Origin: an uncultured Ignavibacteriales bacterium
GTDB taxonomy: Bacteria; Zixibacteria; MSB-5A5; GN15; FEB-12
Direction: 5' to 3'
DNA: 64,000 nt
NCBI GenBank assembly: GCA_964371785.1
Contig: CAYJOL010000002.1
Span: forward strand, 21,534 to 85,533
Shown: positions 21,338-53,814 of the stretch, piece by piece
Layout: each line of letters begins with the position of its first letter
How positions within the stretch are numbered: position 1 is the stretch's first letter
Made by a program: the position numbers and the translations under genes
Notes under the pieces: generated by a model
The model's input: the letters and a program-made list of their open reading frames with translations, nothing else
Told to the model about the DNA's origin: nothing
The model's database searches: none

Positions 21338-21360
21338 AAAAAGCGGAGAGGCAGGGATTC
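21338..21360 (-). repeat. Displaced copy of the tRNA-Ser 3' end (putative distal att site)
   Basis: AAAAAGCGGAGAGGCAGGGATTC is identical over 23 nt, in the same orientation, to 53723..53745. The latter covers the 3' 17 nt of tRNA-Ser(GGA) plus 6 nt beyond it. Similarity stops abruptly on both sides. Confidence 0.75.
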
Positions 21361-21515
21361 TCCGCCGCCGTTTTCGTGTTACCCCATATATAGCTGTTAA
21401 ACTGCTGAGAAGCAACAGCGACAGCGACAGCAGAAGACTGGTAGAATAACACGCTCTCCGCACAAAGCCTCCTTTACTTCAAATGTCTCAACTACCGCAT
21501 GAAGCAATCATGCCT

Positions 21516-23102
21516 CTATTTGATCAATAGCACCTTCCGAGTGAATGATGCCCTTTCGTTCAAGCTGAGTCGGTAAATATAGACCCCAGATGAGACTACG
21601 TCGCCCGCATTGTCTCTTCCGTTCCAGATAAGCCGGTATTTGCCAGCCGTAGCCTGTGAGTTAAACAGAGTTCTGACTGATTCTCCCAAGATGTTAAAAA
21701 TGCTTAGATCGGCCTTTCCTGCCCTGGGCAGGTCAAATTCGATAGTCGTACTCAAATTGAAAGGGTTTGGATAATTCTGCTTTAGGTCAAATTCATTTGG
21801 CAACGTAGCATCATAATCATAGGGCACGTCAGTTCCGCTGTCCCATCCCGAGAATAGGAAGATCAGGGGAATAGTCCCGGCTCCCCTTAGTGTTGAGATT
21901 GCGAAGTCATCCAATCCATCTCCATTAATGTCTCCCAATCCCGAGACCTCATGCGCGAAGTAGTCGTGGTAATTTGGAAAATCGCTTATATCAATATGAA
22001 CATCTGGAATGCTATCCATGCTTGGGCCACCGTAGTAGATATTCGACCACCCCAGACCAGAGAGCGATGTAGAATACCCAGTGATCAGATCGGCATAGCC
22101 ATCATGATTCACGTCTCCGGCCAACCGACCCTTTTGACCCCAATCGCTCAATATGATATCCGGAATGGCGTCCAGACTTGGTCCCCCCCAGTACAGAAAG
22201 GAACGCGGGTCACTAGACGAACTCCCATAATAGTCTACATAGATATCAGGATAATTGTCGCCGTTCAGATCGCCAACGTCCTCCAGCAGCGATCCGAATT
22301 GTACGTATTGAGACGCAAAAGTGTCCGCTGGAGTAAAGATCAGATCAGGTATCGTGTCGAACAGTGGTCCCCCCCAGTACAACAGAACCTGTCCGTTAAT
22401 CTTCCGCAGCTCTTGATACGTAACGTCGGTAACCAAGTCGGGCCAGCCGTCATCATTATAGTCTTCTGTTAGAATCGAGTATCCAAAATTGGTCGATGAG
22501 GAACGATCGTTGGGTGGATATAGAATCTGGCTTGGTGTGCTGTCCCAGACCGCCCCGAGCTCAAATATTAGCAAGTATCGTTGGCGAGTGTCCCGGGTGA
22601 TAAGCTCCGGCGTCCCATTGTGGTTAATATCATTCCCATAGATCGCATTGCTGGCAAATGGCCAGTTTGTATCGTCGCCGAACAGGAAAACCGGCGTCGT
22701 AGTGAGCCCCGGCCCGCCATAAAACAGGGCAAGCCGCATCCTGCCATCTGAAAGTAGCCTTATTAGAGTGAAGTCTTTGTATCCATCGCCGTTTATGTCC
22801 CCCAGATTACTCATGTAACCCGATAGCATACTGTCAAATTCCATATAGTAGTTTGAGTTAGGAGGATTTCCACCTAGATAGAGATAGACCACTGGGCCTG
22901 CTTCGCCTACAAGGTAATCATCAAACCCGTCTCCATTCTGGTCACCAACTGGAACTATCCAATCACCAAACCAACTGTTGACAGAGTGTCCGAAAAGAGT
23001 ATCGATCATTGGTGGTATTGTCGCAACGTCCGCCCTACAAATACCTGCCATGGGAAGCGACAAGACAACGAAGAAAATGGAAGCTATTAGCCACAACTTC
23101 AT
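21516..23102 (-). CDS. FG-GAP (integrin-alpha/VCBS-like) repeat protein with T9SS C-terminal sorting domain
   Basis: Repeated GD[IVL]N[GH]DG[YL].D motifs at least 6 times. Signal peptide when started at MKLWLIASIFF (23102). C-terminus LKQNYPNPFNLSTTIEF...VYIYRL...KVLLIK. Confidence 0.85.
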   Translation of the reverse strand: MKLWLIASIFFVVLSLPMAGICRADVATIPPMIDTLFGHSVNSWFGDWIVPVGDQNGDGFDDYLVGEAGPVVYLYLGGNPPNSNYYMEFDSMLSGYMSNLGDINGDGYKDFTLIRLLSDGRMRLALFYGGPGLTTTPVFLFGDDTNWPFASNAIYGNDINHNGTPELITRDTRQRYLLIFELGAVWDSTPSQILYPPNDRSSSTNFGYSILTEDYNDDGWPDLVTDVTYQELRKINGQVLLYWGGPLFDTIPDLIFTPADTFASQYVQFGSLLEDVGDLNGDNYPDIYVDYYGSSSSDPRSFLYWGGPSLDAIPDIILSDWGQKGRLAGDVNHDGYADLITGYSTSLSGLGWSNIYYGGPSMDSIPDVHIDISDFPNYHDYFAHEVSGLGDINGDGLDDFAISTLRGAGTIPLIFLFSGWDSGTDVPYDYDATLPNEFDLKQNYPNPFNLSTTIEFDLPRAGKADLSIFNILGESVRTLFNSQATAGKYRLIWNGRDNAGDVVSSGVYIYRLSLNERASFTRKVLLIK

Positions 23103-23234
23103 GATTCGCCCTTTCAATACCCAATTATCCTGATACTTGGGCCGGGTGGCCCACCCCTTGGGGTGGGTTTCCTCATTAGTCCATCTGTATATCATCTATA
23201 TCGTCCATGTGTATTGGTACGTTCTCAACACCCG

Positions 23235-23267
23235 GGTGCCCCACAGCTCTGCTGTGGGAAAGTCACG
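23235..23267 (+). repeat. REP-like palindromic unit, copy A
   Basis: GGTGCCCCACAGCTCTGCTGTGGGAAAGTCACG, with an internal hairpin CCACAGC-TCT-GCTGTGG. Confidence 0.7.
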
Positions 23268-23280
23268 CACCCAGACAAAT

Positions 23281-23493
23281 TTACAATTCATAATCATCCA
23301 TTTCAAGCGGAACTTCTCGATGTCCGCAATACCACGTGTAACTGGACCATCGCCACTCACCCGGCTCGGAAACCAATCCCCGTTTCACCGGATTAGTGTG
23401 ACAATAGGTAATCTTCTCTCTGACAGTCTCGGCCGATCGACAATTATGGTCATAGCATCGGCGCTGCCAATACACCCGTGTCCGGTGCCCCAT
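23281..23493 (-). pseudogene. Truncated REP-associated tyrosine transposase (RAYT / IS200-like Y1), C-terminal half only
   Basis: YWQRRCYDHN...ITYCHTNPVKRGLVSEPGEWRWSSY matches the conserved RAYT C-terminus (Y.H.NPV..GLV..P..W.WSS). The N-terminal HUH half is absent. The apparent ATG lies inside REP copy B. Confidence 0.7.
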
Positions 23494-23516
23494 AGCTCTG
23501 CTGTGCGCAAGTTACG
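23484..23516 (+). repeat. REP-like palindromic unit, copy B
   Basis: GGTGCCCCATAGCTCTGCTGTGCGCAAGTTACG, same register and orientation as copy A. It abuts the break point of the RAYT remnant. Confidence 0.65.
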
Positions 23517-23593
23517 ACCGACGTATCTTTCCGGGCAAGCTCTAAGAAGGACCCTGCCCGACTGAATCAATCCGCACATGATCTCAGAAAGAG

Positions 23594-24160
23594 CTACTGC
23601 AGTTTCCCGGCATCCTTCATCATGTGCTTAAGGATCAGTATCTGACCGAAGTGTCCGGCGAAATGCTCCAGCACATGATACAGTGTCCACATCCGGGAAT
23701 ACTGCCGCTTGTTCAGTTTGTACAGCTTGTCCAGATCGCGATCACGCCAGGTTTTCATCTCGCGATGAGCGGAGCGCCGGGCCCGGGTTATCGCCTCCAG
23801 ATATTTATCGATTGTGTAGCCGCGAAGATACTCTGGATGCGTTCCGTCGGGCGGCAACGGCATGCCGTCGTCTTCAAAACCGCAAATCTTGCGGATCACC
23901 TGCTTGCCTTCCGGTTCCCACGGTATGCCTGCCGGCGCGACATTGATCCACCAGACTTCAACGAGCGCCTGGTGAGCCAGCAGCATGCCGATAGTATTCA
24001 TTCCCGGGCGTTGCTGCCATTCCAGTTGTTCGACCGTAAGACCCGCGACGCTTTCTTTAAGCTTCTTGAGCTGATCATCGAGTTGAGCGGCGAAGAGTCC
24101 GACTTTGGTCTGCGTTTTCGGATCGTAGCCCCGCGGAACCTTGATTTCGCGCTTTACCAT
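23594..24160 (-). CDS. DinB-family (DinB_2/DUF664-like) four-helix-bundle protein
   Basis: 188 aa. LLAHQALVEVWW...HREM...HVLEHFAGHFGQILILKH gives the conserved His triad spacing. GGAGGG RBS upstream. Confidence 0.7.
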   Translation of the reverse strand: MVKREIKVPRGYDPKTQTKVGLFAAQLDDQLKKLKESVAGLTVEQLEWQQRPGMNTIGMLLAHQALVEVWWINVAPAGIPWEPEGKQVIRKICGFEDDGMPLPPDGTHPEYLRGYTIDKYLEAITRARRSAHREMKTWRDRDLDKLYKLNKRQYSRMWTLYHVLEHFAGHFGQILILKHMMKDAGKLQ

Positions 24161-24237: not shown

Positions 24238-25533
24238 CTACGACCGGTTACCGGTGAGTCTTGTGATTTCCGGCAATTGCACTTTGGACGGACAGAGCTC
24301 CTTCAACCGCATCAGACCTTCTATCATCGGTGGTAAGGTCTCGGTAGCCCAGTTGCCGTCGATCAGCAAAGTGCTCAGGTGGGCTCTGTCACCGCTGGGA
24401 TGAAGGTCCGGCTCGATTGACTCCCAGTTTATTTTCATTTGTCCGCCGTACTTCTTCCAGAAAGTCGGATCATGAATTGCAAACAGGATTCCGTATTCAT
24501 AATTGCCCGAGAGGGCATTGAAACCGTACGACACTAATTCGATCGCTATATTGTGTCTATTGTCCAAGAGCCACTTCAATGCCTCGCAATTCTCGAAATA
24601 GTAACCCGGCTGAATATGGGTCGAACCGCCTTCCACTTCTTCGCCGCCAAAGAGTTCTTCATAGATCTCACGATACACGGTGTGGAGGACGTTTGCTTCA
24701 ACCCGCCGGTTACACATATGTTGATGGAACGCCCGGGGGATCACGCTGATGGAGTTCTGGTTGTCTGCTACTTTTGACGATCGAATCTGAGTAACCAGAT
24801 AGTAATCGTTGTGCGGCGACGGTCGAGCGGCGGCAAAGACGACAAACACTCCGCCTGCGCATATACGGTGTCTTGGCGACAATATGGCCGAGCGGCTCGG
24901 CAACAGCATTTCCCGAATCGACAGGCAATTCATTCGATCTTCGAGAATGTGTTCGCAGTCATGTCCCTCTTCGATCAACGCTTCGTAGAGCTCGTCGATC
25001 ACCAGACCCATCGTAAACTTATACGTGAAGAAATCCGTGACCGCAAATGTCGATTGATACTCGCTTGCATCCAACTTGAAATCCGTCATGCGATAGATAG
25101 GGCGATCTTCGAGCTGAAGGTTCTGTCCCTCCACTACCGCAAGCAGTCGCGAAACTTTATTAATATCGGGGAGCACAACTTTCAGCGGCTCATCGACCAA
25201 CCGGCACGAGCCGTCGTCAATGTCCAGGCTGATGATGCGTTCATTCCACGATGGCCTCGTCAGGGCGTTGGTGTGAATACTCTTTCCATCGACCGAATAT
25301 GAGTAGAAATAGGAATCATCGGCCGGATTGCGCCGTTCGTAGTATTGCCTGAGAAGGGTCGTGTCGAGATTGTTTCTGAAGATATCGGCGAATTGTCTCC
25401 TGCGTTCCTGCTGATATCTGATATCCTGGATATCCTTGCCCCGTTGTCGGTAATCGGCGAGCTTCTTGGAGAGCTCTTTCACTGACAGTCCGGTTATCAC
25501 CGCTATGGCCGACAAGATTTCAATACCGAACAT
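24238..25533 (-). CDS. Hypothetical protein with degenerate Nudix-like fold
   Basis: 431 aa with a GGGAGG RBS. Residues about 225-300 read GGVFVVF...YYLVTQIRS...SVIPRAF...E(x8)REIYEELFGGEE. This resembles the Nudix box GX5EX7REUXEEXGU but is off by one residue in two places. Confidence 0.55.
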   Translation of the reverse strand: MFGIEILSAIAVITGLSVKELSKKLADYRQRGKDIQDIRYQQERRRQFADIFRNNLDTTLLRQYYERRNPADDSYFYSYSVDGKSIHTNALTRPSWNERIISLDIDDGSCRLVDEPLKVVLPDINKVSRLLAVVEGQNLQLEDRPIYRMTDFKLDASEYQSTFAVTDFFTYKFTMGLVIDELYEALIEEGHDCEHILEDRMNCLSIREMLLPSRSAILSPRHRICAGGVFVVFAAARPSPHNDYYLVTQIRSSKVADNQNSISVIPRAFHQHMCNRRVEANVLHTVYREIYEELFGGEEVEGGSTHIQPGYYFENCEALKWLLDNRHNIAIELVSYGFNALSGNYEYGILFAIHDPTFWKKYGGQMKINWESIEPDLHPSGDRAHLSTLLIDGNWATETLPPMIEGLMRLKELCPSKVQLPEITRLTGNRS

Positions 25534-25818: not shown

Positions 25819-25930
25819 CTGGACTTCCCATCCGGTGTTTGCATGCCACTTGCCCGCCGCTGACGGCGGCAATGATACGGCGGGCTCGAAGACGAGTCCA
25901 CCCTACGAAGAAACGCATCTACTATTACGG
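25819..25930 (+). repeat. 112-bp structured repeat, copy 1
   Basis: Aligns without gaps to 53581..53692 at roughly 90% identity. Contains two GC-rich hairpins, one around CCGCCG-CTGA-CGGCGG and one at GGCGGGCTCG-AAGA-CGAGTCCACC. Confidence 0.8.
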
Positions 25931-25998
25931 CTAGGTGACCCAGTCGTCATCCGGCGGGTCAGCCAAATCTACACCACATAGGCAACCCAATTCGCCGA

Positions 25999-26790
25999 TC
26001 AGCCACCTAGATGAACGATCTTCCAGAAATCTGCCTCGGAATAATTTCGTTTATCGAAAAACAGCGATTTGCCCAAAGCATCGATGATCTCGTTCTCCTT
26101 CATTCTGCCTGATGGTGTGCCTATGAGCCCAGAGTCCCGGTACAATCTGACCAAACGTCCATCCCCAATCGGCTCACTCTGAAAAAATTTCAAGCGATCC
26201 AGCCGTTCCTGCCCTATTTCGGACATTGCCCACTTACTGAAGTAGGTTACCCAGTACAGACCGGGAAACATGGCACAAAAATCGTCGCGGCGACATCTTC
26301 CGCCAGCCGTCTGGCCCACATAGAACTCTGTAGATCCCAATTCCTCCTTTAGAAACACGAAATGCTTCTGATCAAGGTCTTTCACAGTTGTAAGATAACC
26401 AAACGCCGGATCGAAATTCTCCACAACAAATCTAAACAATTCAACCGCCAACTCATCTCCGGCGTTCATGGCCAGATAAACGCGGCAACCCCAGGGAAAC
26501 CGATTGGGATTCAGGCCCACTCTTTCGCTCCAGTCCATATTGGCCGTGAATCTCGGTCGAGATGCTCGCCTTAACATGACGGGAGACTTATACTTCAGCC
26601 ACAGGGAAATCGCTCCCTCCACACCGTCTTCGCTCAGTTTCCTTCGAATTGGCTCGCCGGATCCGTAATATTCCGGCCGAAGCAGGGAATTCCTGTGGCC
26701 GCACCAATCGGTCAGTAAGGAACGTGCAAATTCCTCCGATCCAATGTTCTTTATTGTTTGAATATTGATATAGTACATCGGTGCCCTCAT
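25999..26790 (-). CDS. Putative immunity protein for the upstream Rhs C-terminal toxin
   Basis: 263 aa. The start codon overlaps the Rhs stop in an ATGA arrangement at 26787..26790. No signal peptide and no family recognised. The call rests on position only. Confidence 0.6.
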   Translation of the reverse strand: MRAPMYYINIQTIKNIGSEEFARSLLTDWCGHRNSLLRPEYYGSGEPIRRKLSEDGVEGAISLWLKYKSPVMLRRASRPRFTANMDWSERVGLNPNRFPWGCRVYLAMNAGDELAVELFRFVVENFDPAFGYLTTVKDLDQKHFVFLKEELGSTEFYVGQTAGGRCRRDDFCAMFPGLYWVTYFSKWAMSEIGQERLDRLKFFQSEPIGDGRLVRLYRDSGLIGTPSGRMKENEIIDALGKSLFFDKRNYSEADFWKIVHLGG

Positions 26791-41730: not shown

Positions 41731-41773
41731 TGATAGACCATCAAGATGATGAAATACAGGGCACAAACTGAAG

Positions 41774-42799: not shown

Positions 42800-42847
42800 G
42801 TATACCATACCTTCTGAGACACTTTTAGCGTAGATTGGAAGTAAATC

Positions 42848-43749: not shown

Positions 43750-43874
43750 CAATACTACAATTGAGCTTCGCTTATGCCCACCGGCAGAAATTGGCAGGGT
43801 CCACCATTACATAACAATCACTTAGCGTGGGATATAAGCGTTTCGAGGTGCACACATTCAGGCTATCGAACGTA

Positions 43875-45071: not shown

Positions 45072-45127
45072 CTTGCCTGCACCCTTACTTTGTCATATAA
45101 TATATACAAGTTTGTCAACTGTGGGGA

Positions 45128-46564
45128 ATGGTTTTCTTGATGGGCCGGGAAATTTCCGATTCATTTTCGCAGCGATTCTGTGAACAGTTCAACCTGCTCC
45201 CTCTGCTTGAACAAGAGCACGTTAAGCTGCTGTTCTGTGAACACAGCGATCTGTCGATTGTGCCGTACATTGCGATGAAGGCACAGATACCTATTACTTT
45301 CCAGCGGACGACATCAAGCGAGTTGGAGGAATCGATTGAACGAGCTTTCACTCAGGACAAGGATCGCGAACCGAATTCCCAGGTGATGGCCAGTCCGACC
45401 CGCGTTCATACCTATAATAACGCTGTAGATTCACTGAACAAATTGATCGCCGGCAGTATTGCTCAGCGAGCTTCGGACATTCATTTTGAACCACAAGCTG
45501 ATTCAATGATCTGCCGGATGAGAATAGACGGGGTGCTCTTCAAAAAGTCTGCATACACAAAGGCTGAGGTGCCGGAAGTCATTTCTCGCATCAAGATCAT
45601 GTCGGGACTGGACATTGCGGAGAAGCGTCGACCGCAGGATGGCCGAATTCGTTTTTCACATGATAATAGGATTGTGGATATCCGAGTATCGGTAATACCC
45701 ACCGATTTCGGTGAAAAGGCAGTCCTGCGCATCCTCGACAAGAAGAGCCTGAAGGTGGAGTTAAGCGCTCTCGGGTTCTCCACGCGACAACTCAGTACAT
45801 TTCAGGAGACCATCAAATTGCCGCATGGCATTATTCTGGTAACCGGTCCAACCGGGTCTGGCAAAACAACAACACTGTACGCAGCCCTTTCAGCACTCAA
45901 GTCATCCGAAGTCAACATCTCGACGGTTGAAGACCCCATCGAATATAATCTGGAGGGCATCAATCAAACGCAAATCCGACCTGAAATTAATGTCAGCTTT
46001 GCCGTAATGATGCGGGCCTTGCTCAGACAGGACCCAAACATTCTCATGGTAGGTGAGATCCGCGATCCTGAAACGCTTGAAATGGCTATCCGGGCATCAC
46101 TCACCGGACACCTGGTCTTGTCAACCCTGCATACGAACGACGCAGTCTCGACCATCAATAGGCTGGTTGACATGGGGGCCGAGCGCTCGCTATTGGCGTC
46201 GACTCTCAGGGCAATCATCGCTCAACGTCTTGTACGAAGGATTTGTGCTCGCTGTCAAACGGACAGTGTGAATGATCTTAACATCCTGGCTGCGCGCAAA
46301 CTCCAGATCGAACCATCTACCGGCTTCCGGCAAGGTTTGGGCTGCGAACGGTGTCTGCAGTCGGGCTACTTTGGAAGAACTGCTGTGTATGAGGTGTTAT
46401 CCGTAGACAATAGCGTTCGTGAGGTAATCCTAAATGGTGGGATAGAGGCAGATTTGCTTCAAAGGGCACGTCAGAACGGCTTTGAAACAATGCACGAACG
46501 TGCCGTTGAGCTTATTGGAAATAGCATAACTACTCCGACGGAAGTGCTAAGAGAGATAGGCTAG
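45128..46564 (+). CDS. GspE/PilB-family secretion/assembly ATPase
   Basis: Walker A GPTGSGKTTTLY, Asp box STVEDPIE, Walker B ILMVGEIRD, His box LVLSTLHTND and tetracysteine motif CARC...CERC. The N-terminal domain is short. Confidence 0.9.
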   Translation: MVFLMGREISDSFSQRFCEQFNLLPLLEQEHVKLLFCEHSDLSIVPYIAMKAQIPITFQRTTSSELEESIERAFTQDKDREPNSQVMASPTRVHTYNNAVDSLNKLIAGSIAQRASDIHFEPQADSMICRMRIDGVLFKKSAYTKAEVPEVISRIKIMSGLDIAEKRRPQDGRIRFSHDNRIVDIRVSVIPTDFGEKAVLRILDKKSLKVELSALGFSTRQLSTFQETIKLPHGIILVTGPTGSGKTTTLYAALSALKSSEVNISTVEDPIEYNLEGINQTQIRPEINVSFAVMMRALLRQDPNILMVGEIRDPETLEMAIRASLTGHLVLSTLHTNDAVSTINRLVDMGAERSLLASTLRAIIAQRLVRRICARCQTDSVNDLNILAARKLQIEPSTGFRQGLGCERCLQSGYFGRTAVYEVLSVDNSVREVILNGGIEADLLQRARQNGFETMHERAVELIGNSITTPTEVLREIG

Positions 46565-46567
46565 CTG

Positions 46568-48526
46568 ATGAGGATTGGCGCAAACAAACTTATAATAAGC
46601 ACATTTTTGACTTTAGCACTGGGTATCGGCATGGCTGCAACCAATCGCGCTGACGCGCAAATCAGCGCAGACCTGCTGAAGCAGGCGCTTACGAAGAATG
46701 CTCAGGATAGTCTCGCACCGAATGACTCCAGCGCAGCGCCGCGCTCCCAAAGAATTGTTGACACAGTCCTGACAATCCCCAAGCTGGACTACGCCAATGT
46801 AAAACTCTCAGATGCCCTGACGGCCCTTGGTCGTGCGTACGGATTGTCTATGTATGTGGACTCATCGGTGACCGGAAATATTTCGATGCGCCTGGACAAC
46901 GTTAGCCTCAATGACGCCCTGCTTTTCATTATCCGCCAATACAAACTCTCGTGGGACAAGACCGGCGACATTATTAAGATCTTTCGGCCGGAGATTCCCC
47001 CTCCCCCGCCTGAGCCTTTGAACATCTCGTTCAAGGACCAGTTGTTATCAGTCAATGTGTCCAAGTGCGACCTGGAGCGATTCGTGTCAGCTCTTTCCGA
47101 CACTACCGGCAAGAACATTGTATTGGAAAAGGATACCAAGGGCACCATCAGCTCAAGAGTCACTGATATGGCCCTGGACAAGGCGCTGAGCGTCATCTTT
47201 ACCGCTAACGGCTACACTTACCGTGACATAGATGGTGTTGCGTACGTTGGTGTTGAAATTGACGCCAAGGCGGGCAAGCCGAAGGGGCGAAATCTAAATG
47301 CTAATTGCCGGGACGGATTGATTTCGGTTGACCTCACGAACGTCGGGCTGGCCGATTTGATTCCTTACCTCAAATCGGAATGCGGGATTAACCTGTTCAT
47401 TCAATCAGCGCTTGAAGGGAACATTAGTGCCAGTTTCACGGACAAGACCATCGAGGAAGCGTTGACATATATTTTCATCAACTCACCATATACCTACAAG
47501 CAGGTCGGCGACTTGTATCTGATCGGCCAGCGAACATCCGAGGACTTGTATGTAACGAAGCTGGTGAAACTCAAACACCTGATCGCCTCGGCGGTCGAGT
47601 CGTTAATTCCAGCGACTGTGTCAAAACAGTTGTCGATCAAGGTGGTGAAGGAACACAACGGTCTCGTATTGACCGGGCCAATAACAGCGATCAGTGAAGC
47701 AGAATCGTTCATTGATGCGATCGATATTCCAATGGCACAGGTATTGTTTGAAGTACTGGTCGTTGATTATTCGAGCACAGACCGGGCGGAATTCGGCCTC
47801 ACGGCCAACAACTTCGGCGGTGATTCCGGACTTCCCGGTCAATCGTATTACCCTAATATCGACGTCAGCGGCATCGGAAGTGATTTGAACTATAACCTGC
47901 GCTCGGTGGAACGGCATCTAGGCATCGGTAATCTCGGCACACTTGATGATAATTTCTTTGTCAGACTGCAGATGCTGCAACAGCAAGGTAAGGCCAATAT
48001 CCGATCTCATCCGACCATCGCCGCCCTAAACGGTCATCCGGCCTCCATTAGTATCGGGACGACCCAGTATTTCCTGCTGGAAAGCAAGACAGTTTACCCG
48101 ACGGAACAATCGTCGCTGTCGACCCAGACCTCGCAACATTTCGAGTTGGTGGAAGCGGACATGAAACTGGAGATCACGCCGTTTGTGAACTCCAGCGGCG
48201 AGTTGATCGTCGATATCAAGCCGGAGTTCAGCACACCGGCCAGCACCTTCAACCCGGACGTGCCACCTACTATCAACAAGCGAGTGTTGAATTCCACAGT
48301 ACGGTTGCGTAATGGCGAGACGATTGTACTTGGCGGATTGGTACAATCGAGTAAGAATGAGCACATCGAGAAGCTTCCCATCCTTGGTTCGTTTCCAATC
48401 CTGGGAAGACTATTCCAAAATCGAACATCGACTGACGTAAAGTCCGAACTGATGATTTATGTAACTCCGTACGTCTATTACGGAGCGGAAGGTTCAGTCA
48501 ATCGGGACAGCCTCCTGAAGAGATAA
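46568..48526 (+). CDS. Secretin (GspD/PilQ family) with three N-terminal STN-like modules
   Basis: 652 aa with a signal peptide. Three tandem modules of about 80 aa (..LSDALTALGRAYGLSM.., ..LERFVSALSDTTGKNI.., ..LADLIPYLKSECGINL..). C-terminal secretin core INKRVLNSTVRLRNGETIVLGGL...LPILGSFPILGRLF. Confidence 0.85.
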   Translation: MRIGANKLIISTFLTLALGIGMAATNRADAQISADLLKQALTKNAQDSLAPNDSSAAPRSQRIVDTVLTIPKLDYANVKLSDALTALGRAYGLSMYVDSSVTGNISMRLDNVSLNDALLFIIRQYKLSWDKTGDIIKIFRPEIPPPPPEPLNISFKDQLLSVNVSKCDLERFVSALSDTTGKNIVLEKDTKGTISSRVTDMALDKALSVIFTANGYTYRDIDGVAYVGVEIDAKAGKPKGRNLNANCRDGLISVDLTNVGLADLIPYLKSECGINLFIQSALEGNISASFTDKTIEEALTYIFINSPYTYKQVGDLYLIGQRTSEDLYVTKLVKLKHLIASAVESLIPATVSKQLSIKVVKEHNGLVLTGPITAISEAESFIDAIDIPMAQVLFEVLVVDYSSTDRAEFGLTANNFGGDSGLPGQSYYPNIDVSGIGSDLNYNLRSVERHLGIGNLGTLDDNFFVRLQMLQQQGKANIRSHPTIAALNGHPASISIGTTQYFLLESKTVYPTEQSSLSTQTSQHFELVEADMKLEITPFVNSSGELIVDIKPEFSTPASTFNPDVPPTINKRVLNSTVRLRNGETIVLGGLVQSSKNEHIEKLPILGSFPILGRLFQNRTSTDVKSELMIYVTPYVYYGAEGSVNRDSLLKR

Positions 48527-49827
48527 TGAATCAACGACTGAAAGCAATGGTCTCCGAAGGAGTCAGGCTGACGCCTTCGGAGTATATCGTATGGATAGGC
48601 AGAGCTGAACTGCTTTTCCTTAGGGTGCGCAATCGTGGCGGATGCAAGATACTTTTTCGTTGCTCTAATGTGAGACCGACAGACAGAACTCTTGAGACTT
48701 GTCTCTCGTCGCTAATTGCATCCCCTGCCTATTTTGGACAGCCGATCGATATTATTCTTAATACTGAAGGCTATTCGTATATCAAACACATTGGTAAGAT
48801 TGACGCTTCTCAGTTATTCGAGCGGCTGAAGCTTGTACGTGATGCGGATTTTGCGGTCGCCTATCGAGCCAAAAAACACAAACGCAAGACGTACCTGGTA
48901 TACGAGGCCTCAGACAGCCAATATCTGTCTCAGCTGTATGAGATTACCGGCCGTTTGGGGATACCCATATGTCAGGTAGCGCGCGCGTCTACACTGTTGT
49001 TCGAGGCCGCTTTGGAGAGAATCACCGGCAATTATGTCGCCGAGTTCCGTCTTACCGAACACGAGCGTCTCGTACTGGCGTTTGACCAATCGGGGAACGC
49101 GCTGGCAGTGTCAGTTTCGCCCACGGCAGAGTACCCCGACCAAAACACGGTTGCCACGCTCTTTGAGCATACCAATTATGTGCACGAGTTGTTTACGGAA
49201 GTACCTCGGAACACCGGGACTAACCACGTGCCCTCCTTATCACACATACTCCTGACCGGGCTGAGGCGACTGCCACGCGCAAAAACGACTGGCAAAAATG
49301 GCCGGAAACTCGGAGTGGCACGACTGCTTAAACTCGCTCTGAACAGCGCCAAGTTGCTTGTGATACTCCTTCTGGCGATGAATGTCTTCTTGGGAGCAGT
49401 TCTCCTGTCCTTCACAGTATTCATTGAGAAGCCGAGCGATGCCATCCGAACATATCAGTTCGCATACAGCCGCAAATATATGCTCCAGCAGTCTATCGAT
49501 TCCTTGAATGCGTATTTCACCACGGCCGGGGCCCACTCTACACGTACTAGCGCTGCCGCCATTGTCAGCCTATTCTGCCAACGATCCGTCTCCGGATTGT
49601 ATGTCGATCAACTGGTGTTAAAAATGGGAACGGCCGACAGCCTGCAAGTAGAAGTATCGGGCAAAGCGAGAAATGAGCGAAGCGTGTTTGCCTATCGTAC
49701 GATGTTAGACAGCCTGTTTGCACCGCTGGCATTCACTATGAACTCTGTCAGGCCTGTTCTGGTGACCGACATGGGACGACCAGATACACTCACAAACTTC
49801 AAACTGGCTACTCAATTGCATGATTAG
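48526..49827 (+). CDS. Bitopic assembly protein, GspL-like or PilM/PilN-fusion-like
   Basis: 433 aa. Cytoplasmic part of about 265 aa, one TM segment (LLVILLLAMNVFLGAVLLSFTVFI), then a periplasmic tail. The start overlaps the secretin stop. The call rests on topology and position only. Confidence 0.45.
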   Translation: MNQRLKAMVSEGVRLTPSEYIVWIGRAELLFLRVRNRGGCKILFRCSNVRPTDRTLETCLSSLIASPAYFGQPIDIILNTEGYSYIKHIGKIDASQLFERLKLVRDADFAVAYRAKKHKRKTYLVYEASDSQYLSQLYEITGRLGIPICQVARASTLLFEAALERITGNYVAEFRLTEHERLVLAFDQSGNALAVSVSPTAEYPDQNTVATLFEHTNYVHELFTEVPRNTGTNHVPSLSHILLTGLRRLPRAKTTGKNGRKLGVARLLKLALNSAKLLVILLLAMNVFLGAVLLSFTVFIEKPSDAIRTYQFAYSRKYMLQQSIDSLNAYFTTAGAHSTRTSAAAIVSLFCQRSVSGLYVDQLVLKMGTADSLQVEVSGKARNERSVFAYRTMLDSLFAPLAFTMNSVRPVLVTDMGRPDTLTNFKLATQLHD

Positions 49828-50329
49828 AACACTTCAAAACCATGGAGCTGTCCTCTTGCTGGTATCATTTGTGGGCCTATCGGCCGTGATGGTTTATAGT
49901 GTCGTAGTTTTGATCGATCAGGTCGCGGGGTCCGTTAAGATTTTCACTTTGGCGCTAGATTCTCAGGAACACAGTGCCACAATCCAGGCCGAAGTGGTTT
50001 CATTGGAGAAGCGATTGGCGACTCTATCCAGCCTAAAGGAACATCAACAGGAGCGCAGACCATTGTCGCTGTCTTCGATAGAAGGATGCGCCAGACAGAA
50101 TCGGTTAGGGATCGGGGCCGTAGAACGACTCAGTTCAGGTTCCAAAAACGGTGAAACATCCGGTGTTAGGTACAGCGTCTCGATTATCGGAACCATAGGT
50201 AATATGGTTAGGTTTCTCGATCAGCTGGAAAAGGAATGTGTGATAGAATCTGACAACATCACTATTCGCCCCGATAATGCAGATGGGACGCAGGTAGTTT
50301 CGGTAATGAATGTGATACTAAACGAGTAG
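49820..50329 (+). CDS. GspM/PilO-like bitopic protein
   Basis: 169 aa. N-terminal TM segment, a coiled segment, then a small C-terminal domain. Overlaps the previous gene by 8 nt. Confidence 0.45.
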   Translation: MIRTLQNHGAVLLLVSFVGLSAVMVYSVVVLIDQVAGSVKIFTLALDSQEHSATIQAEVVSLEKRLATLSSLKEHQQERRPLSLSSIEGCARQNRLGIGAVERLSSGSKNGETSGVRYSVSIIGTIGNMVRFLDQLEKECVIESDNITIRPDNADGTQVVSVMNVILNE

Positions 50330-50334
50330 CGGTC

Positions 50335-50814
50335 ATGAGTCGTCAGAATTGGAGAAGAGCAATCCTGGGCGTACTGACGTTAGTAGCGGTCTGGCTCTGG
50401 TGGGGAAATTTGCAGCTGTTCTATACAAGCAACTCAGTTCAGCCGATTCCGGTGTCAATGGAACGATCCACACCCATCCACTCGTCTCGGGCCGCTGCCT
50501 TAAAATATCTGCCGCCCAAGACTAATCCGTTTTTTAAGGGTACGGTGCGTGCAGTGTCCGGTGACGCGTCGACTAGACCACAGAAGTCGGTCCAACAGAT
50601 TCCGAAGCGACCGAGTTCGGACCATGCGCTGTCCGGCTTCGTGACCGAGACCAAAGTCCCGCAAGTGATTGTGATTGATCCGGGGAAATCCAGCAGAATA
50701 CTGACCATAGGCGATTCAATTAATGGTTGGCAACTGGTAAGAATTCATGACAATTCTGTTCTGTTTCAGTATGACAATATTTGTGACACACTGTTCCTTT
50801 CTCCGAGTAAATAG
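50335..50814 (+). CDS. GspC/PilP-like bitopic protein
   Basis: 159 aa. N-terminal TM segment, a Pro/Ser-rich linker, and a C-terminal beta segment (ILTIGDSINGWQLVRIHDNSVLFQYD) typical of the PilP/GspC HR domain. Confidence 0.45.
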   Translation: MSRQNWRRAILGVLTLVAVWLWWGNLQLFYTSNSVQPIPVSMERSTPIHSSRAAALKYLPPKTNPFFKGTVRAVSGDASTRPQKSVQQIPKRPSSDHALSGFVTETKVPQVIVIDPGKSSRILTIGDSINGWQLVRIHDNSVLFQYDNICDTLFLSPSK

Positions 50815-50842
50815 GACATATGGCCCAGTTTGCCAGGGTACC

Positions 50843-52165
50843 GTGCTGGTGTCCGTACTGGCCATCATGCTGGCGCTATTGACGATTTTTCTGTTCGCCA
50901 TGACCTATGTGCTGTCCCGTTTCAGTATTCATCAAAGAAACGTGAATCAGCTTGCGGCGCGAAATCTCTCGGAGATGGGAGTTGCTGCTGGACTGCACCG
51001 ACTGATGTCAAGGCGTGATGCCACAGCTCAGGACAGCCTCGTAAGATTCGAAGAGGGTTTGTATTTTACGAGCATTGTACCTTGGGGTCCCTTCTTCCTT
51101 CTGACGTCGACCGGCACTTGTGCGAACCAAACAGCCACGACCCGGGCCATAATCGGTTCTGACTCAAGGCCTGAAATAGAGTCGGCAATCACTCTAACAG
51201 ACTTAAACTTCCCGCTATATGTAGCTGGAACTGCCAGAATCCATGGCAACGTTATCACCGGCCCCCTTGGCATGGCAGCCGGGCAGATTGGCGGAGAGGC
51301 TCCTGAGCAGCACTTTCATATAGGTGACGTACTGAAGAAGCCGTACGTTTCATTTCCCAGGCTTGACACGGCCGTGATTGAACAGTATTTCCGCGAGGTG
51401 GAGAATCGGCGCCTTAACACAAAGAAGGTGCTAAGTAGTTCGCTTGTTTTGGGCAAGAGTGATAGTATTCAATTCAGTGCTGAGGGCACGCTATGCATAG
51501 AAAACGACCTGTTGATTAATGGAGCAGAAGTCTCGGTGTACGGCACCGTGATGTCGGTGTTTGTTGACGGTTCGAGCGAGATTGTGGCAAATTCAAAAGT
51601 GGGCGGCTTCATTGAATTGGTGTCAGGCGGCCCGGTGCTTATGGATGATGACGCGGTGGTTGATAATGTGCTCATATATTGTGAAGATGCCATAAATATT
51701 ACCGGCTATGTGACGTTTTCGGGTATCGCCATTAGCCGAAAGCGGATTGTTGTTGACGACCAAGCCACCCTCGTTTATCCAGCGACATTGATAGTTCTGG
51801 CGGACAGCACGGAATGCGACAGTTGCGGTATCTATCTTCGAAGTAGCAGGTCAATGGAAGGAGTCTGTCAGATTGCCTTGACAGATACGGCCGTAGGTCA
51901 GAATGACTATCTCCTCTATTTGGACAAAGCGTCAGTATTCACCGGGCTGTTGATTGCGCAGACGGCCGCCGACCTGCGTGGTACTGTGAATGGCAGCGCC
52001 GTCGTCAGGCAGTTCCGATACGAGCAGCCCCCAACGACATATATCAATTGGATACGAGACTTGAAGATAGATAATAGTAAACTAACCTTCGTACCCACGA
52101 CTCCGCTTTCAGCGACAGTTGAGGATTCGGCGAGGTTTCGAATTCTTGAGCAGGTGACAAGGTAA
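50843..52165 (+). CDS. GspK/PilX-like large minor-pilin-associated protein
   Basis: The ORF opens at 50747, but that would overlap the previous gene by 68 nt. In-frame GTG codons at 50843 and 50849 and an ATG at 50867 are more plausible. The N-terminus QGTVLVSVLAIMLALLTIF resembles PilX/GspK anchors. The remainder looks beta-rich and repetitive. Confidence 0.5.
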   Translation: MLVSVLAIMLALLTIFLFAMTYVLSRFSIHQRNVNQLAARNLSEMGVAAGLHRLMSRRDATAQDSLVRFEEGLYFTSIVPWGPFFLLTSTGTCANQTATTRAIIGSDSRPEIESAITLTDLNFPLYVAGTARIHGNVITGPLGMAAGQIGGEAPEQHFHIGDVLKKPYVSFPRLDTAVIEQYFREVENRRLNTKKVLSSSLVLGKSDSIQFSAEGTLCIENDLLINGAEVSVYGTVMSVFVDGSSEIVANSKVGGFIELVSGGPVLMDDDAVVDNVLIYCEDAINITGYVTFSGIAISRKRIVVDDQATLVYPATLIVLADSTECDSCGIYLRSSRSMEGVCQIALTDTAVGQNDYLLYLDKASVFTGLLIAQTAADLRGTVNGSAVVRQFRYEQPPTTYINWIRDLKIDNSKLTFVPTTPLSATVEDSARFRILEQVTR

Positions 52166-52527
52166 TGGGAAGCAAGGTTTTGAATAATCAACGAGGAATC
52201 TCACTCATTGAAGTCCTGGTAGCTTCCGTAATTTTCATGATTGGATTCTCTATCCTGGTTATGTTGTTGAATGGCGTCACGGGCAGATTTGATGCAAAGG
52301 AGATCGAAACGGCAGCGGCTTTGGCAGACGATTTCATGAACCTCGCGGTCGCAGAAAAGGACACCCTGCCTCAAGACACAATGTTTGTGGCATCTGGTAT
52401 CCGTTATCGGGTGCTGAAGTCCTGCGTTGTAGAAAAAGGAATAGTCAAGCTGGAAATCGTTGTCAAAAGGTTCTCCTCTGACAAAGAATTGGTGAGGCTT
52501 CACAATGCGTTTCTTACTGCAACATAA
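52165..52527 (+). CDS. Minor pseudopilin with prepilin-type N-terminal domain (GspI/PilV-like)
   Basis: 120 aa. NQRGISLIEVLVASVIFMIGF matches the class III signal (G/[FIV]xLxE). Confidence 0.75.
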   Translation: MGSKVLNNQRGISLIEVLVASVIFMIGFSILVMLLNGVTGRFDAKEIETAAALADDFMNLAVAEKDTLPQDTMFVASGIRYRVLKSCVVEKGIVKLEIVVKRFSSDKELVRLHNAFLTAT

Positions 52528-53026
52528 CGAAAAGGGCGTGACTTTGGTCGAATTGCTCGTCACCCTCGGTGTGTCGGCCATTCTGATTGTATTCGTCGTG
52601 TCAGGCAGTCTTTTCATCCAGAAATATGTTTCTAACGAACAGCAAGCCAGCAGGTTGTTCGAAGAACTCTCAGCTATTAGCTCAGAGCTTCGTACTGCCA
52701 TCGCAAAAGCAAACCGTATCCAAACGTATTCGGATAGTCTCGTTTGCGCATCAGATCTAAATGATCAAGTTACATACTCATGGCACGATAGCTCTTTTGC
52801 CCGCAACGGCCATGAGCTTCTGAGTACGAGCTTTAGATTAACCTCAGTAACGGTTGAAAAATTGGAATTGCCAAGACCAGGTGATTCCACTATATATAGT
52901 AATGTAAGACGATACTCTGCCGGACTCTACAGGGTGCGAGTAATCGTCGCAGATAAGAAAGGGGTTCGAGATTCTCTGACCTTTACGGTGACGAACGAGC
53001 ATGAAAAAACAAAATTCAGTCCGTAA
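52505..53026 (+). CDS. Minor pseudopilin with prepilin-type N-terminal domain (GspJ/PilW-like)
   Basis: 173 aa. EKGVTLVELLVTLGVSAILIVFV. Confidence 0.75.
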   Translation: MRFLLQHNEKGVTLVELLVTLGVSAILIVFVVSGSLFIQKYVSNEQQASRLFEELSAISSELRTAIAKANRIQTYSDSLVCASDLNDQVTYSWHDSSFARNGHELLSTSFRLTSVTVEKLELPRPGDSTIYSNVRRYSAGLYRVRVIVADKKGVRDSLTFTVTNEHEKTKFSP

Positions 53027-53462
53027 GCGACGGTCCCTTCTAAGATCGATGTCTGGCTTCTCTTTGCTGGAGCTGCTGATTGTGCTTGTTATAATAGCCA
53101 TCATTGCCGGGCTGGCAATTCCTCGATACATGAGTAGCACCGTCAAGGCCAAGCAAATGGAAGCTCAGGAATTACTGCACCAAATCTACCTGATGGAACG
53201 GTCTTTCTATCAGAAGAATGATCATTATTGGATACCTGCCAGTGGAATTGTGGCAGACAAGAACAATCCTTACGCATTCGATTCGCTCGGTGTCGAGATC
53301 ATGACTTCAGCAAGGTATACCTATTCGATAACGGGTGATGAGATTCACTTTGTCGCGACAGCCACGGCTGAGCGCCTCGACGATGACCCGGCGATTGACC
53401 AGTGGCAGATTGACGATCGAGGCACGCTGAGGTGTGTCATAGATGACTCGATTGTTCATTGA
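53001..53462 (+). CDS. Major pilin/pseudopilin (PilA/GspG-like)
   Basis: 153 aa. SGFSLLELLIVLVIIAIIAGLAIPRY followed by an amphipathic helix. Confidence 0.8.
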   Translation: MKKQNSVRKRRSLLRSMSGFSLLELLIVLVIIAIIAGLAIPRYMSSTVKAKQMEAQELLHQIYLMERSFYQKNDHYWIPASGIVADKNNPYAFDSLGVEIMTSARYTYSITGDEIHFVATATAERLDDDPAIDQWQIDDRGTLRCVIDDSIVH

Positions 53463-53488
53463 GAATATGAGGACCCGCATAACGACGT

Positions 53489-53510
53489 ATGTGCTGGACG
53501 CACATGTTTT
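53489..53510 (+). terminator. Possible rho-independent terminator after the pilin gene
   Basis: ATGTGC-tggac-GCACAT stem-loop followed by GTTTT, about 27 nt after the stop. The stem is short. Confidence 0.45.
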
Positions 53511-53580
53511 GGAGCCATGAGTGCAAGTGATGGTCGACAAAATGTTCCCCAATTAGCCTAATGCTGATCTATGCGTGATT

Positions 53581-53692
53581 CTGGGCTGCCCGTCCGGTGT
53601 TTGCATGCCACTTGCCCGCCGCTGGCGGCGGCAAGGATAAGGCAGGCTCGAAGACGAGTCTTCCCTACTAAGAAACGGTTCTACTATTACGG
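53581..53692 (+). repeat. 112-bp structured repeat, copy 2
   Basis: Gap-free match to 25819..25930 in the same orientation. Ends 30 nt from the tRNA-proximal att-like repeat. Confidence 0.8.
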
Positions 53693-53722
53693 AAACTATT
53701 TGCCAGCCCAATCTCCCCAATT

Positions 53723-53745
53723 AAAAAGCGGAGAGGCAGGGATTC
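53723..53745 (-). repeat. tRNA-proximal copy of the 23-nt direct repeat (putative att site)
   Basis: Identical to 21338..21360. It covers the T-arm 3' strand, acceptor 3' strand and discriminator base of tRNA-Ser, plus 6 nt downstream. Confidence 0.75.
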
Positions 53746-53814
53746 GAACCCTGGATAGGGGTTACCTATACACACTTTCCAGGCGTGCGCCTTCAGCCGC
53801 TCGGCCACCTCTCC
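53729..53814 (-). tRNA. tRNA-Ser (anticodon GGA)
   Basis: 86 nt on the minus strand: GGAGAGG-TG-GCCGAGCGGCTGAAGGC-G-CACGC-CTGGAAA-GTGTG-long variable arm-CAGGG-TTCGAAT-CCCTG-CCTCTCC-G. Cloverleaf folded by hand. CCA is not encoded. Confidence 0.9.

What the first reader, a model, noticed from the sequence alone, without database searches (positions are those of the whole stretch)
21338..53814. tRNA-Ser(GGA)-anchored island of about 32.4 kb bounded by an exact 23-nt direct repeat, with no integrase left
AAAAAGCGGAGAGGCAGGGATTC occurs exactly twice, in the same orientation. At 53723..53745 its last 17 nt are the 3' end of an intact tRNA-Ser on the minus strand. At 21338..21360 it sits in a noncoding gap, and similarity ends abruptly on both sides.

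The second copy lies on the 3' side of the tRNA. That is the attL/attR geometry left by a tyrosine-integrase element inserting into a tRNA 3' end.

The enclosed genes are all accessory. They include an Rhs toxin with immunity gene, two dead IS copies, a RAYT stump, T9SS cargo proteins and a T2SS/T4P-like cluster. The outside flanks are housekeeping.

No tyrosine or serine recombinase ORF is present, so the island appears immobilised. Hand counts of a few 60-nt lines gave 33% and 47% GC in the Rhs gene and 47% in the secretin gene, against 53% and 58% in the flanks. One line in the T2SS-like cluster was 60%, so the sample is too sparse to be conclusive.
Basis: partly seen in the sequence, partly recalled or inferred. 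Interest (0 to 1): 0.8.

Follow-up and report, generated by a model that had tools for sequence, protein, structure and literature searches.

The report
Decayed mosaic island at tRNA-Ser
In an uncultured Zixibacteria genome, the stretch after a serine tRNA gene is an old, integrase-less patchwork of acquired and native genes, not one 32-kb mobile element; this is an ordinary kind of genomic island, whose most interesting cargo is a toxin gene linked to a secretion-system cluster.

Summary
The 23-mer occurs exactly twice (21338-21360, 53723-53745). The second copy covers the last 17 nt of an intact tRNA-Ser(GGA) plus 6 nt of trailer. No recombinase or recombinase relic is present.

The host is a Zixibacteria MAG.
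- Synteny on the fetAB side runs up to this tRNA in all relatives and stops there.
- Two distant relatives carry a tyrosine integrase directly after the same tRNA.
- Three others have their own direct repeat starting in the T-loop.
So the repeat is best read as an att relic at a real integration hot spot.

The 32.4 kb is not one element.
- The distal repeat and its 34-nt inner flank are shared with sister species, where they bound only 1.9-2.9 kb.
- DinB (23594-24160), inside the "island", is a backbone gene syntenic with the left flank in a sister species.
- The foreign-looking part is 25931-53580. It is bracketed by a separate 112-nt direct repeat and has lower GC3 (0.54 against 0.62-0.66). 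Its T2SS-like genes have no relative above about 60% identity.

This is a decayed, composite tRNA-linked island, fixed in its population. Separately, Rhs toxins sit beside this T2SS-like cluster in five independent genomes.

The parts
53728..53814 (-). tRNA-Ser(GGA), intact, no encoded CCA. It lies downstream of fetA/fetB. This fetB-tRNA linkage is conserved across Zixibacteria.
   Evidence: ARAGORN. The same tRNA follows fetB in 18 of 32 related loci.
53723..53745 (.). Proximal copy of the 23-nt repeat: 17 nt of the tRNA 3' end (from within the T-loop) plus 6 nt of trailer.
21338..21360 (.). Distal copy of the 23-nt repeat, read as an att relic. On the minus strand it can form the hairpin GCGGAGA/TCTCCGC followed by T5.
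   Evidence: The fold is not better than shuffles in the window.
21361..21394 (.). Inner flank of the distal repeat, conserved with L002 14553-14586. It is the shared end of an ancestral islet.
   Evidence: blastn 87.5% over 64 nt including the repeat; alignment
53581..53692 (.). R2A: tRNA-trailer segment with two hairpins, and first copy of a 112-nt direct repeat. Its tRNA-proximal part (53641-53692) is conserved next to the tRNA in L001 and L002.
25819..25930 (.). R2B: second copy of the 112-nt repeat (89% identical). It lies between the Rhs immunity gene and the 431-aa gene.
25931..53580 (.). Compositionally foreign 27.65-kb block bracketed by R2A and R2B. It is the most plausible horizontally acquired part.
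   Evidence: GC 0.493; GC3 0.537 against 0.62-0.66; tetranucleotide r 0.39-0.70. No orthologs downstream of the tRNA in any relative. T2SSE best outside hit 55-58%.
26787..34334 (-). Rhs/YD-repeat toxin, 2515 aa, with a C-terminal Tox-REase-7 nuclease domain.
   Evidence: Pfam
25999..26790 (-). 263-aa ORF overlapping the Rhs stop codon; inferred immunity protein. It has no family hit. Population contigs break here.
34525..35796 (+). Decayed IS3-family element of 1272 bp with 14-nt perfect terminal inverted repeats. Its orfA and orfB are frameshifted.
   Evidence: Pfam HTH_Tnp_1, rve, rve_3; ORFs and inverted repeats
36035..39427 (-). T9SS cargo protein: right-handed beta-helix plus Por_Secre_tail C-terminal domain.
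39590..42799 (+). GNAT acetyltransferase, a 348-aa unknown, and an LPG_synthase_TM-like membrane protein (paralog of 1240-2205).
43875..45071 (-). T2SS/T4P platform protein (T2SSF), divergent from the rest of the cluster.
45128..53462 (+). T2SS-like operon: T2SSE ATPase, secretin, 433, 169, 159 (GspC-like) and 472 aa proteins, then three N-methyl pseudopilins. No prepilin peptidase.
   Evidence: Same gene order in L107, L108/109, L112/113 and L114. Peptidase absent.
24238..25533 (-). 431-aa protein of unknown function with host-like composition. Its ortholog in L002 lies about 390 kb from the tRNA locus.
23594..24160 (-). DinB/MST-family gene. It is backbone, not island cargo.
23287..23511 (-). 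C-terminal stump of a REP-associated tyrosine transposase (RAYT). It is flanked by 33-nt REP-like repeats at 23235-23267 and 23484-23516.
   Evidence: tblastn 63% over 75 aa to the L002 RAYT
21516..23195 (-). FG-GAP T9SS cargo protein with atypical GC3 (0.527). It is absent from the sister species.
17105..21182 (-). RibD_C-like reductase and a Ser/Thr kinase-NB-ARC-TPR (STAND) gene. They lie outside the 23-mer but are also variable: the DinB-MTase interval of L105/L106 lacks them.

Best explanation
The fetAB-linked tRNA-Ser(GGA) gene is a site-specific integration hot spot in Zixibacteria. The 23-nt repeat is the remnant of an attL/attR pair made by a tyrosine integrase crossing over between the T-loop and the 3' end of the tRNA.

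That event is old. The common ancestor of this species and its sister species (L001, L002) already had the distal copy with the same inner flank. There it bounded a small islet that holds a RAYT transposase in L002.

In the window's lineage the interval was then rebuilt into a 32.4-kb mosaic with four parts:
1. A 27.65-kb horizontally acquired block (25931-53580), flanked by its own 112-nt repeat of the tRNA trailer. It carries an Rhs nuclease toxin with presumed immunity gene, a dead IS3, a T9SS cargo gene, lipid-modification genes and a T2SS-like cluster.
2. Native-looking genes (the 431-aa gene and DinB) that were moved in by rearrangement.
3. A RAYT stump with REP-like repeats.
4. A T9SS cargo gene.

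All recombination genes are gone. The region cannot move by itself and is fixed in the sampled population. In the terms used for streptococcal elements, it resembles tandem accretion followed by decay to a cis-mobilizable-element-like state.

Shown here: the repeats, the tRNA, the absence of an integrase, the composition, the synteny breaks, the shared distal end, and integrases at this tRNA in relatives. Inferred: that an integrase made the repeat, the order of events, and that the R2 repeats mark the insertion of the 27.65-kb block.
For: - Repeat and tRNA.
- Right-flank synteny stops at the tRNA in every relative.
- PF00589 integrases lie 41-79 nt after the same tRNA in L024 and L026.
- Independent direct repeats of the tRNA 3' end start in the T-loop: L002 (45 nt exact, 2.9 kb apart), L011 (22 nt, 2.5 kb) and L015 (18 nt plus extension, 7.5 kb). 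L011/L015 have a different inner-flank family from the window/L002.
- The distal repeat plus inner flank is shared with L002, and the L001 contig ends at the homologous point.
- The RAYT in L002 and the stump in the window are homologous.
- DinB is backbone and syntenic with the left flank in L105/L106.
- The R2 repeat coincides with the compositional boundaries.
- T2SSE has no homolog above about 60% identity, whereas backbone proteins are 82-94% identical to sister species.
- There is no integrase relic.
- The arrangement is identical in more than 10 independent assemblies of the same population.
- CIME and accretion are defined in PMC5704250.
Against: - No empty site was found at strain level.
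- No relative has the left flank abutting the tRNA.
- None of the four repeat-bounded segments seen (window, L002, L011, L015) contains an integrase, so integrase action is inferred only from L024/L026 and from the T-loop boundary.
- In L002 the duplication runs about 190 nt, with a 45-nt exact core. That is long for an att core and includes REP-like sequence.
- DinB lies on different sides of the distal repeat in the window and in L002. This needs an unobserved block rearrangement.
- R2 copy number elsewhere in the genome is unknown, so R2 might be a low-copy dispersed repeat rather than an insertion scar.
Confidence: 0.7

Rival explanations
1. One reading: one 32.4-kb integrative element inserted once into the tRNA-Ser 3' end. 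The 23-mers are its attL and attR, and it later lost its integrase.
For: Exact 23-nt direct repeat with correct geometry. Lower GC inside. No recombinase.
Against: - The distal repeat and its inner flank predate the content. They are shared with L002 and L001, where they bound 2.9 and about 1.9 kb.
- DinB, inside the region, is a backbone gene syntenic with the outside left flank.
- Composition is heterogeneous, and its boundary is at about 25.9 kb, not 21.3 kb.
- An internal 112-nt repeat is present.
Confidence: 0.08
2. No integrase was ever involved. The tRNA 3' end plus trailer was duplicated by homologous or illegitimate recombination, for example Campbell-type insertion of DNA carrying trailer homology, unequal crossing-over, or events promoted by the REP/RAYT-rich trailer. 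The region is simply a recombination-prone plasticity zone.
For: - The duplication is long (about 190 nt) and imperfect in L002, and 112 nt at 89% for R2 in the window.
- RAYT and at least 8 REP copies lie around the L002 tRNA.
- No integrase is present in any of the four repeat-bounded segments.
Against: - The inner edge of identity falls in the T-loop (within 2 nt) in lineages with two unrelated inner flanks. This is typical of tyrosine-integrase cores and unlikely for random breakpoints.
- Integrase genes sit directly after this tRNA in L024 and L026.
- From established knowledge, RAYT and IS200-type enzymes are not known to duplicate target sequence.
Confidence: 0.17
3. The distal 23-mer is a functional hairpin (a transcription terminator for the upstream T9SS cargo gene, or a small RNA). 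It resembles the tRNA end for structural reasons, and its position says nothing about mobility.
For: - GCGGAGA/TCTCCGC stem plus a T-run.
- The stem is kept while the loop has diverged in L105.
- Similar hairpins follow genes in L110 and L111.
Against: - The loop is 9 nt of exact T-arm sequence with no structural reason to be so. 23 of 23 identity is not expected by chance.
- Fold energies are not better than shuffles (z = +0.5 in the window, -2.0 at best in L002), and the window's minimum-energy fold uses another pairing.
- The terminator scan did not call it.
- The L011 and L015 copies have no such stem.
- A terminator role is compatible with an att-relic origin, so it is not really a rival for the origin.
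Confidence: 0.05

Closest known systems
tRNA-linked genomic islands (pathogenicity-island type; tyrosine-integrase elements that target the T-loop-to-3'-end part of tRNA genes)
   Same: It sits at the 3' end of a tRNA gene and has a direct repeat of the tRNA 3' part. GC and codon usage are atypical. The cargo is toxin, secretion and IS genes. Most of it is absent from the nearest species, and integrases occupy the same site in other members of the phylum.
   Different: No integrase or relic is present. The repeat-bounded interval contains a backbone gene (DinB) and is a mosaic of different ages. The distal repeat is older than most of the content.
CIMEs (cis-mobilizable elements) and tandem accretion, as defined for ICESt1-related elements of Streptococcus thermophilus (PMC5704250; Pavlovic et al. 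2004, cited there)
   Same: att-like sites are retained while integration and transfer genes are lost. Three copies of the tRNA-trailer sequence in direct orientation (at the tRNA, R2B, and the distal 23-mer) suggest successive units stacked at one site.
   Different: No remnant of conjugation or mobilization genes shows descent from an ICE or IME. The middle copy lacks the tRNA part. Mobilization in cis by an incoming element is untested. The host is an uncultured FCB-group phylum.
REP/RAYT (REPIN) systems
   Same: A RAYT gene (intact-length but frameshifted in L002, a stump in the window) and palindromic REP-like repeats populate the tRNA trailer region.
   Different: They do not explain the duplication of the tRNA 3' end. 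They look like passengers that add to the instability of the region.
Rhs/YD polymorphic toxin loci with downstream immunity genes
   Same: A giant YD-repeat protein with a C-terminal nuclease (Tox-REase-7) is followed by a small overlapping ORF. Assemblies break at the toxin tip and immunity gene, as expected for polymorphic modules.
   Different: No PAAR, VgrG or other T6SS association was seen. Instead the toxin is genetically linked to a T2SS-like secretin/pseudopilin cluster.

Membership tests
tRNA-linked genomic island | Insertion adjacent to the 3' end of a tRNA gene | tested here: met
   tRNA-Ser(GGA) at 53728-53814. Synteny with all relatives ends there.
tRNA-linked genomic island | Flanking direct repeats derived from the tRNA 3' end | tested here: met
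   23-nt exact repeat; 0 expected by chance
tRNA-linked genomic island | Base composition and codon usage different from the core genome | tested here: met
   Met for 25931-53580 and the FG-GAP gene. Not met for DinB and the 431-aa gene.
tRNA-linked genomic island | Mobility genes (integrase, transposase) present | tested here: not met
   No integrase or relic. Only a dead IS3 and a RAYT stump are present.
tRNA-linked genomic island | Whole interval absent from close relatives (an empty site exists) | tested here: inconclusive
   Most genes are absent downstream of the tRNA in sister species. However, no empty site with the left flank abutting the tRNA was found, DinB is shared, and the population is monomorphic.
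CIME (cis-mobilizable element) | attL and attR retained | tested here: inconclusive
   The core repeats are intact. Arm sites cannot be judged without the cognate integrase.
CIME (cis-mobilizable element) | Integration and transfer genes lost | tested here: met
   None detected
CIME (cis-mobilizable element) | Derived from an ICE or IME and mobilizable by a related incoming element | not testable with these tools
   No conjugation-gene remnants were seen. Mobilization needs an experiment.
Prophage or satellite | Phage structural, replication or lysis genes | tested here: not met
   No PHROG hit for the unknown ORFs. Pfam content is secretion, toxin and IS genes. The hairpin-type att sequence is absent from IMG/VR.
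Type II secretion / type IV pilus-like system | ATPase (T2SSE), platform (T2SSF), secretin, N-methylated (pseudo)pilins and prepilin peptidase | tested here: inconclusive
   E, F, secretin and three N_methyl proteins are present. The prepilin peptidase is missing from the window, though present at the cluster's end in three related clusters.

The most novel reading that the evidence does not exclude
The Rhs toxin and the T2SS-like secretin/pseudopilin cluster may form one functional, horizontally mobile module in Zixibacteria: a secretion apparatus dedicated to exporting or delivering a giant YD-repeat polymorphic toxin. I know of no described Rhs route of this kind. The module would have been captured at an old tRNA-Ser att relic, where integrase-less, repeat-bounded cassettes are shuffled by integrases supplied in trans, like those seen at the same tRNA in L024 and L026. 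Evidence so far: an Rhs/DUF6443/YD protein lies within 10 kb on the T2SSF side in five of five independent contexts (and the window). Four lineages carry repeat-bounded segments without an integrase.
Probability: 0.25. Interest if true: 0.6.

Novelty: new member of a known kind. Interest (0 to 1): 0.3.

Why it matters
As an island this is routine. It shows that tRNA-Ser(GGA) next to fetAB is an integration and plasticity hot spot in the little-studied, uncultured phylum Zixibacteria. It also shows that a clean-looking direct repeat can outlive, and mislead about, the unit that created it, which is a caution for repeat-based island callers. The more useful lead is in the cargo. Rhs toxins are repeatedly linked to a T2SS-like cluster across Zixibacteria, which could point to a new export route for polymorphic toxins in bacteria that show no T6SS association at these loci.

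Tried and rejected
- **Strain-level empty site.** Exact-protein look-ups of RibD_C and FetB gave more than 20 contigs, all with the same arrangement.
- **Integrase relic.** Pfam, NCBIfam and PHROGs on all ORFs, including the 431-aa unknown that sits where an integrase would be expected after R2B, found nothing. tblastn with the L024 and L026 integrases also found nothing.
- **Distal repeat as terminator.** The fold z-scores are not significant and the consensus scan does not call it. I kept this only as a minor possibility.
- **Intact element carrying the inner flank plus core.** The metagenome scan gave 2 hits, both short contexts without an integrase. IMG/VR gave 0.
- **Extending L002 beyond DinB.** This failed because the long-read MAG has frameshifts, so its DinB is not on record as an exact protein.
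- **Defence-system annotation of unknown ORFs.** There were no PADLOC hits inside the region.
- **Literature on a T2SS-Rhs link or on Zixibacteria T2SS.** Two searches found nothing relevant.

Full report
**1. Observation**

The 23-mer AAAAAGCGGAGAGGCAGGGATTC occurs exactly twice, at 21338-21360 and 53723-53745, in the same orientation. There are no near-matches at up to 3 mismatches and none in 100 shuffles. ARAGORN finds a single tRNA, tRNA-Ser(GGA), at 53728-53814 on the minus strand.

Reading the acceptor stem (GGAGAGG/CCTCTCC, discriminator G) puts the mature 3' end at 53729. The repeat therefore spans the last 4 nt of the T-loop, the 3' strands of the T-stem and acceptor stem, the discriminator, and 6 nt of T-rich trailer. 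The second copy lies downstream of the tRNA 3' end, in the gap between a RibD_C-like gene and an FG-GAP gene.

**2. Content**

By Pfam, reading from the distal repeat towards the tRNA, the interval holds:
- an FG-GAP T9SS cargo protein (21516-23195);
- a RAYT stump (23287-23511) flanked by 33-nt REP-like repeats;
- a DinB/MST gene (23594-24160);
- a 431-aa unknown (24238-25533);
- a 263-aa ORF overlapping the end of a 2515-aa Rhs protein with a Tox-REase-7 tip (25999-34334);
- a 1272-bp IS3 relic with perfect 14-nt inverted repeats and frameshifted ORFs (34525-35796);
- a beta-helix T9SS cargo protein;
- a GNAT, an unknown and an LPG-synthase-TM-like gene;
- a T2SS-like cluster: T2SSF, T2SSE, secretin, four unknowns (one of them GspC-like) and three N-methyl pseudopilins, ending at 53462.

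No tyrosine or serine recombinase is present. NCBIfam and PHROGs add nothing for the unknowns. tblastn with two Zixibacteria integrases finds no relic.

**3. Composition**

GC is 0.495 inside against 0.53 in both flanks. Tetranucleotide correlation with the flanks is 0.82-0.93 for flank windows. It falls to 0.39-0.70 between 26 and 54 kb, rises sharply at the tRNA, and is intermediate at 20-28 kb.

GC3 averages 0.537 for the 20 genes in 25931-53580, against 0.62 (left flank) and 0.66 (right flank); Mann-Whitney p = 8.6e-7. DinB (0.667) and the 431-aa gene (0.623) are host-like. The FG-GAP gene (0.527) is not.

**4. Organism and relatives**

A FetB-based scan of species-representative genomes places the window in Zixibacteria. 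The nearest relatives are L001 (92% FetB identity) and L002 (91%, on a 794-kb contig). About 10 kb of right flank is collinear in L001, L002, L004, L005, L019 and others. It includes fetAB, an OB-HD protein, lptFG, a methyltransferase, AdoHcyase and SAM synthetase, at 82-94% protein identity to the sister species. Collinearity ends at the tRNA in every one of them.

tRNA-Ser(GGA) follows fetB in 18 of 32 loci examined. None has the T2SS cluster or the window's left-flank genes within 10 kb after the tRNA.

**5. Is this tRNA an integration site?**

Yes. In L024 and L026 a PF00589 tyrosine integrase starts 79 and 41 nt after the tRNA. L002, L011 and L015 each carry a second direct copy of the tRNA 3' end, 2.9, 2.5 and 7.5 kb downstream.

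In all of them, as in the window, identity begins within the T-loop (GAATCC or TCGAATCC). L011 and L015 share an inner flank (AATGCCA..CGTC) that is unrelated to the one in the window and L002. So at least two element types used the same crossover region.

None of these repeat-bounded segments has an integrase:
- L011 holds a T9SS cargo gene.
- L015 holds signalling genes.
- L002 holds a frameshifted RAYT and REP copies.

**6. The repeat is older than the content**

The window's distal repeat plus 34 nt of inner flank (21361-21394) aligns to L002 14553-14616. In L002 the duplicated block is 45 nt exact and about 190 nt in all.

The L001 contig ends at the point homologous to L002's interior end: L001 13241-13596 matches L002 14136-14579. 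So L001 has the same islet, about 1.9 kb long, and its short-read assembly breaks at the repeat. The RAYT stump in the window is homologous to the L002 RAYT.

The L001 MAG carries a further copy of the hairpin plus trailer, with a diverged loop, 9.2 kb upstream of its DinB (L105 693-798). The distal repeat was therefore already present in the ancestor of the three species, bounding a small islet.

**7. The interval is not one unit**

DinB has about 700 Zixibacteria homologs at 56-79% identity. In L105 (same MAG as L001) and L106, DinB is followed by two small genes. After these come orthologs of the window's left-flank genes: the Dam-like MTase (15787-17019, 70%), the T9SS protein (14512-15561, 78%), 14030-14419 and 12647-13708.

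So DinB belongs to the backbone that continues into the left flank. The 23-mer sits inside a small variable patch between DinB and the MTase. That patch holds FG-GAP, RibD_C and STK-NB-ARC-TPR here, and DUF4386 plus a 127-aa gene in L105.

In L002, DinB lies 5.6 kb beyond the distal repeat. The window therefore needs a block rearrangement that I cannot reconstruct. The 431-aa gene's ortholog in L002 is about 390 kb away from the tRNA locus.

**8. A better-fitting unit**

A 112-nt direct repeat (R2; 53581-53692 and 25819-25930; 89% identical) copies part of the tRNA trailer, including two hairpins. It brackets exactly the compositionally foreign 27.65 kb.

The T2SSE ATPase in this block has no homolog above about 60% identity outside its own population. 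Full-length hits are 55-58%, and partial-coverage hits reach 63%. The sister MAGs are in the database but contribute no close hit.

The same cluster order exists at 20-72% identity in distant Zixibacteria (L107, L108/109, L112/113, L114), away from fetB. Acquisition from a distant donor within or near the phylum is the simplest reading. The window's cluster lacks the terminal prepilin peptidase seen in three of those clusters, so it may have been clipped at the tRNA-side junction.

**9. Population**

More than 20 contigs from the ERZ136929xx assemblies and two Logan runs carry the identical RibD_C or FetB protein. All show the same arrangement across both junctions. No empty site or alternative junction was seen. 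Some contigs break inside the immunity gene, as expected for a polymorphic toxin tip.

**10. Interpretation**

The evidence best fits an old integrase-made att duplication at a phylum-wide tRNA hot spot. Accretion, rearrangement and decay then produced a 32.4-kb mosaic that can no longer move by itself. The nearest described concept is tandem accretion with decay to cis-mobilizable elements (PMC5704250), but there is no evidence of ICE or IME ancestry.

Three rivals were weighed:
- A non-integrase duplication by homologous or REP-associated recombination keeps some weight. The duplications are long and no repeat-bounded segment has an integrase.
- A single-element model is contradicted by points 6-8.
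- A purely structural terminator origin is not supported by folding statistics.

**11. Side finding**

In five of five independent genomic contexts, a giant Rhs/YD (or DUF6443-Rhs) protein lies within 10 kb on the T2SSF side of this T2SS-like cluster. In three of them it is immediately adjacent (and the window). Two literature searches found nothing on such a link. This may indicate a dedicated export route and deserves its own analysis.

**12. Verdict**

This is a new member of a well-known kind, of modest interest in itself.

Noticed in passing
window 26787-34334 and 43875-53462; L107, L108, L109, L112, L113, L114: A giant Rhs/YD-repeat (or DUF6443-Rhs) protein lies beside the T2SSF gene of the same T2SS-like cluster in five of five independent Zixibacteria contexts. 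In the window the two are separated by about 9.5 kb of IS3 relic and other genes. This may be a dedicated Rhs export system.
   Followed up: partly
window 53462-53580 (end of the T2SS-like cluster): The cluster lacks the prepilin peptidase (Peptidase_A24) gene that ends it in L107, L108/109 and L112/113. No A24 homolog exists anywhere in the window.
   Followed up: yes
L002 11400-18000; window 23235-23267 and 23484-23516: REP-like palindromic repeats occur in at least 8 copies around a RAYT gene next to the tRNA in the sister species (GGGTGGCCCAyCCGCTTGCGGTGGGTTTC in L002; a CCACAGCAGAGCTGTGG type in both). The window keeps only a RAYT stump with two flanking REPs.
   Followed up: partly
L024 11069-12226; L026 11043-12239: Intact tyrosine integrases, 71% identical to each other, lie directly downstream of the fetB-linked tRNA-Ser(GGA) in two more distant Zixibacteria. 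The far ends of these elements lie beyond the 10 kb fetched.
   Followed up: partly
window 21338-21371; L105 693-745; L110 660-700; L111 3930-3953: The tRNA-3'-like copies are preceded by GCGGA, so that GCGGAGA pairs with TCTCCGC. In L105 the stem is kept while the loop has diverged. Several copies follow T9SS cargo genes. A secondary terminator role is possible but is not supported statistically.
   Followed up: partly
window 24238-25533: This 431-aa protein has an N-terminal hydrophobic segment and a Nudix-box-like motif (REIYEELFGGEE). It has no hit in Pfam, NCBIfam, PHROGs or PADLOC, and only 11 homologs in 5.8 billion proteins.
   Followed up: partly
window 17105-20263: A Ser/Thr kinase-NB-ARC-TPR (STAND) protein just outside the distal repeat matches PADLOC PD-T4-6-type defence kinases. 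It is absent from the sister species' DinB-MTase interval, so it may be defence-related accessory cargo.
   Followed up: no
window 1240-2205 and 41774-42799: Two LPG_synthase_TM paralogs, one in the left flank and one in the foreign block, share a 126-nt stretch at 73% DNA identity. L006 has a homolog 2.5 kb after its tRNA-Ser.
   Followed up: no
L083, L084 (contig starts); window 25999-26790: Several population assemblies break inside the putative Rhs immunity gene. This suggests strain-level polymorphism of the toxin tip and immunity module.
   Followed up: no
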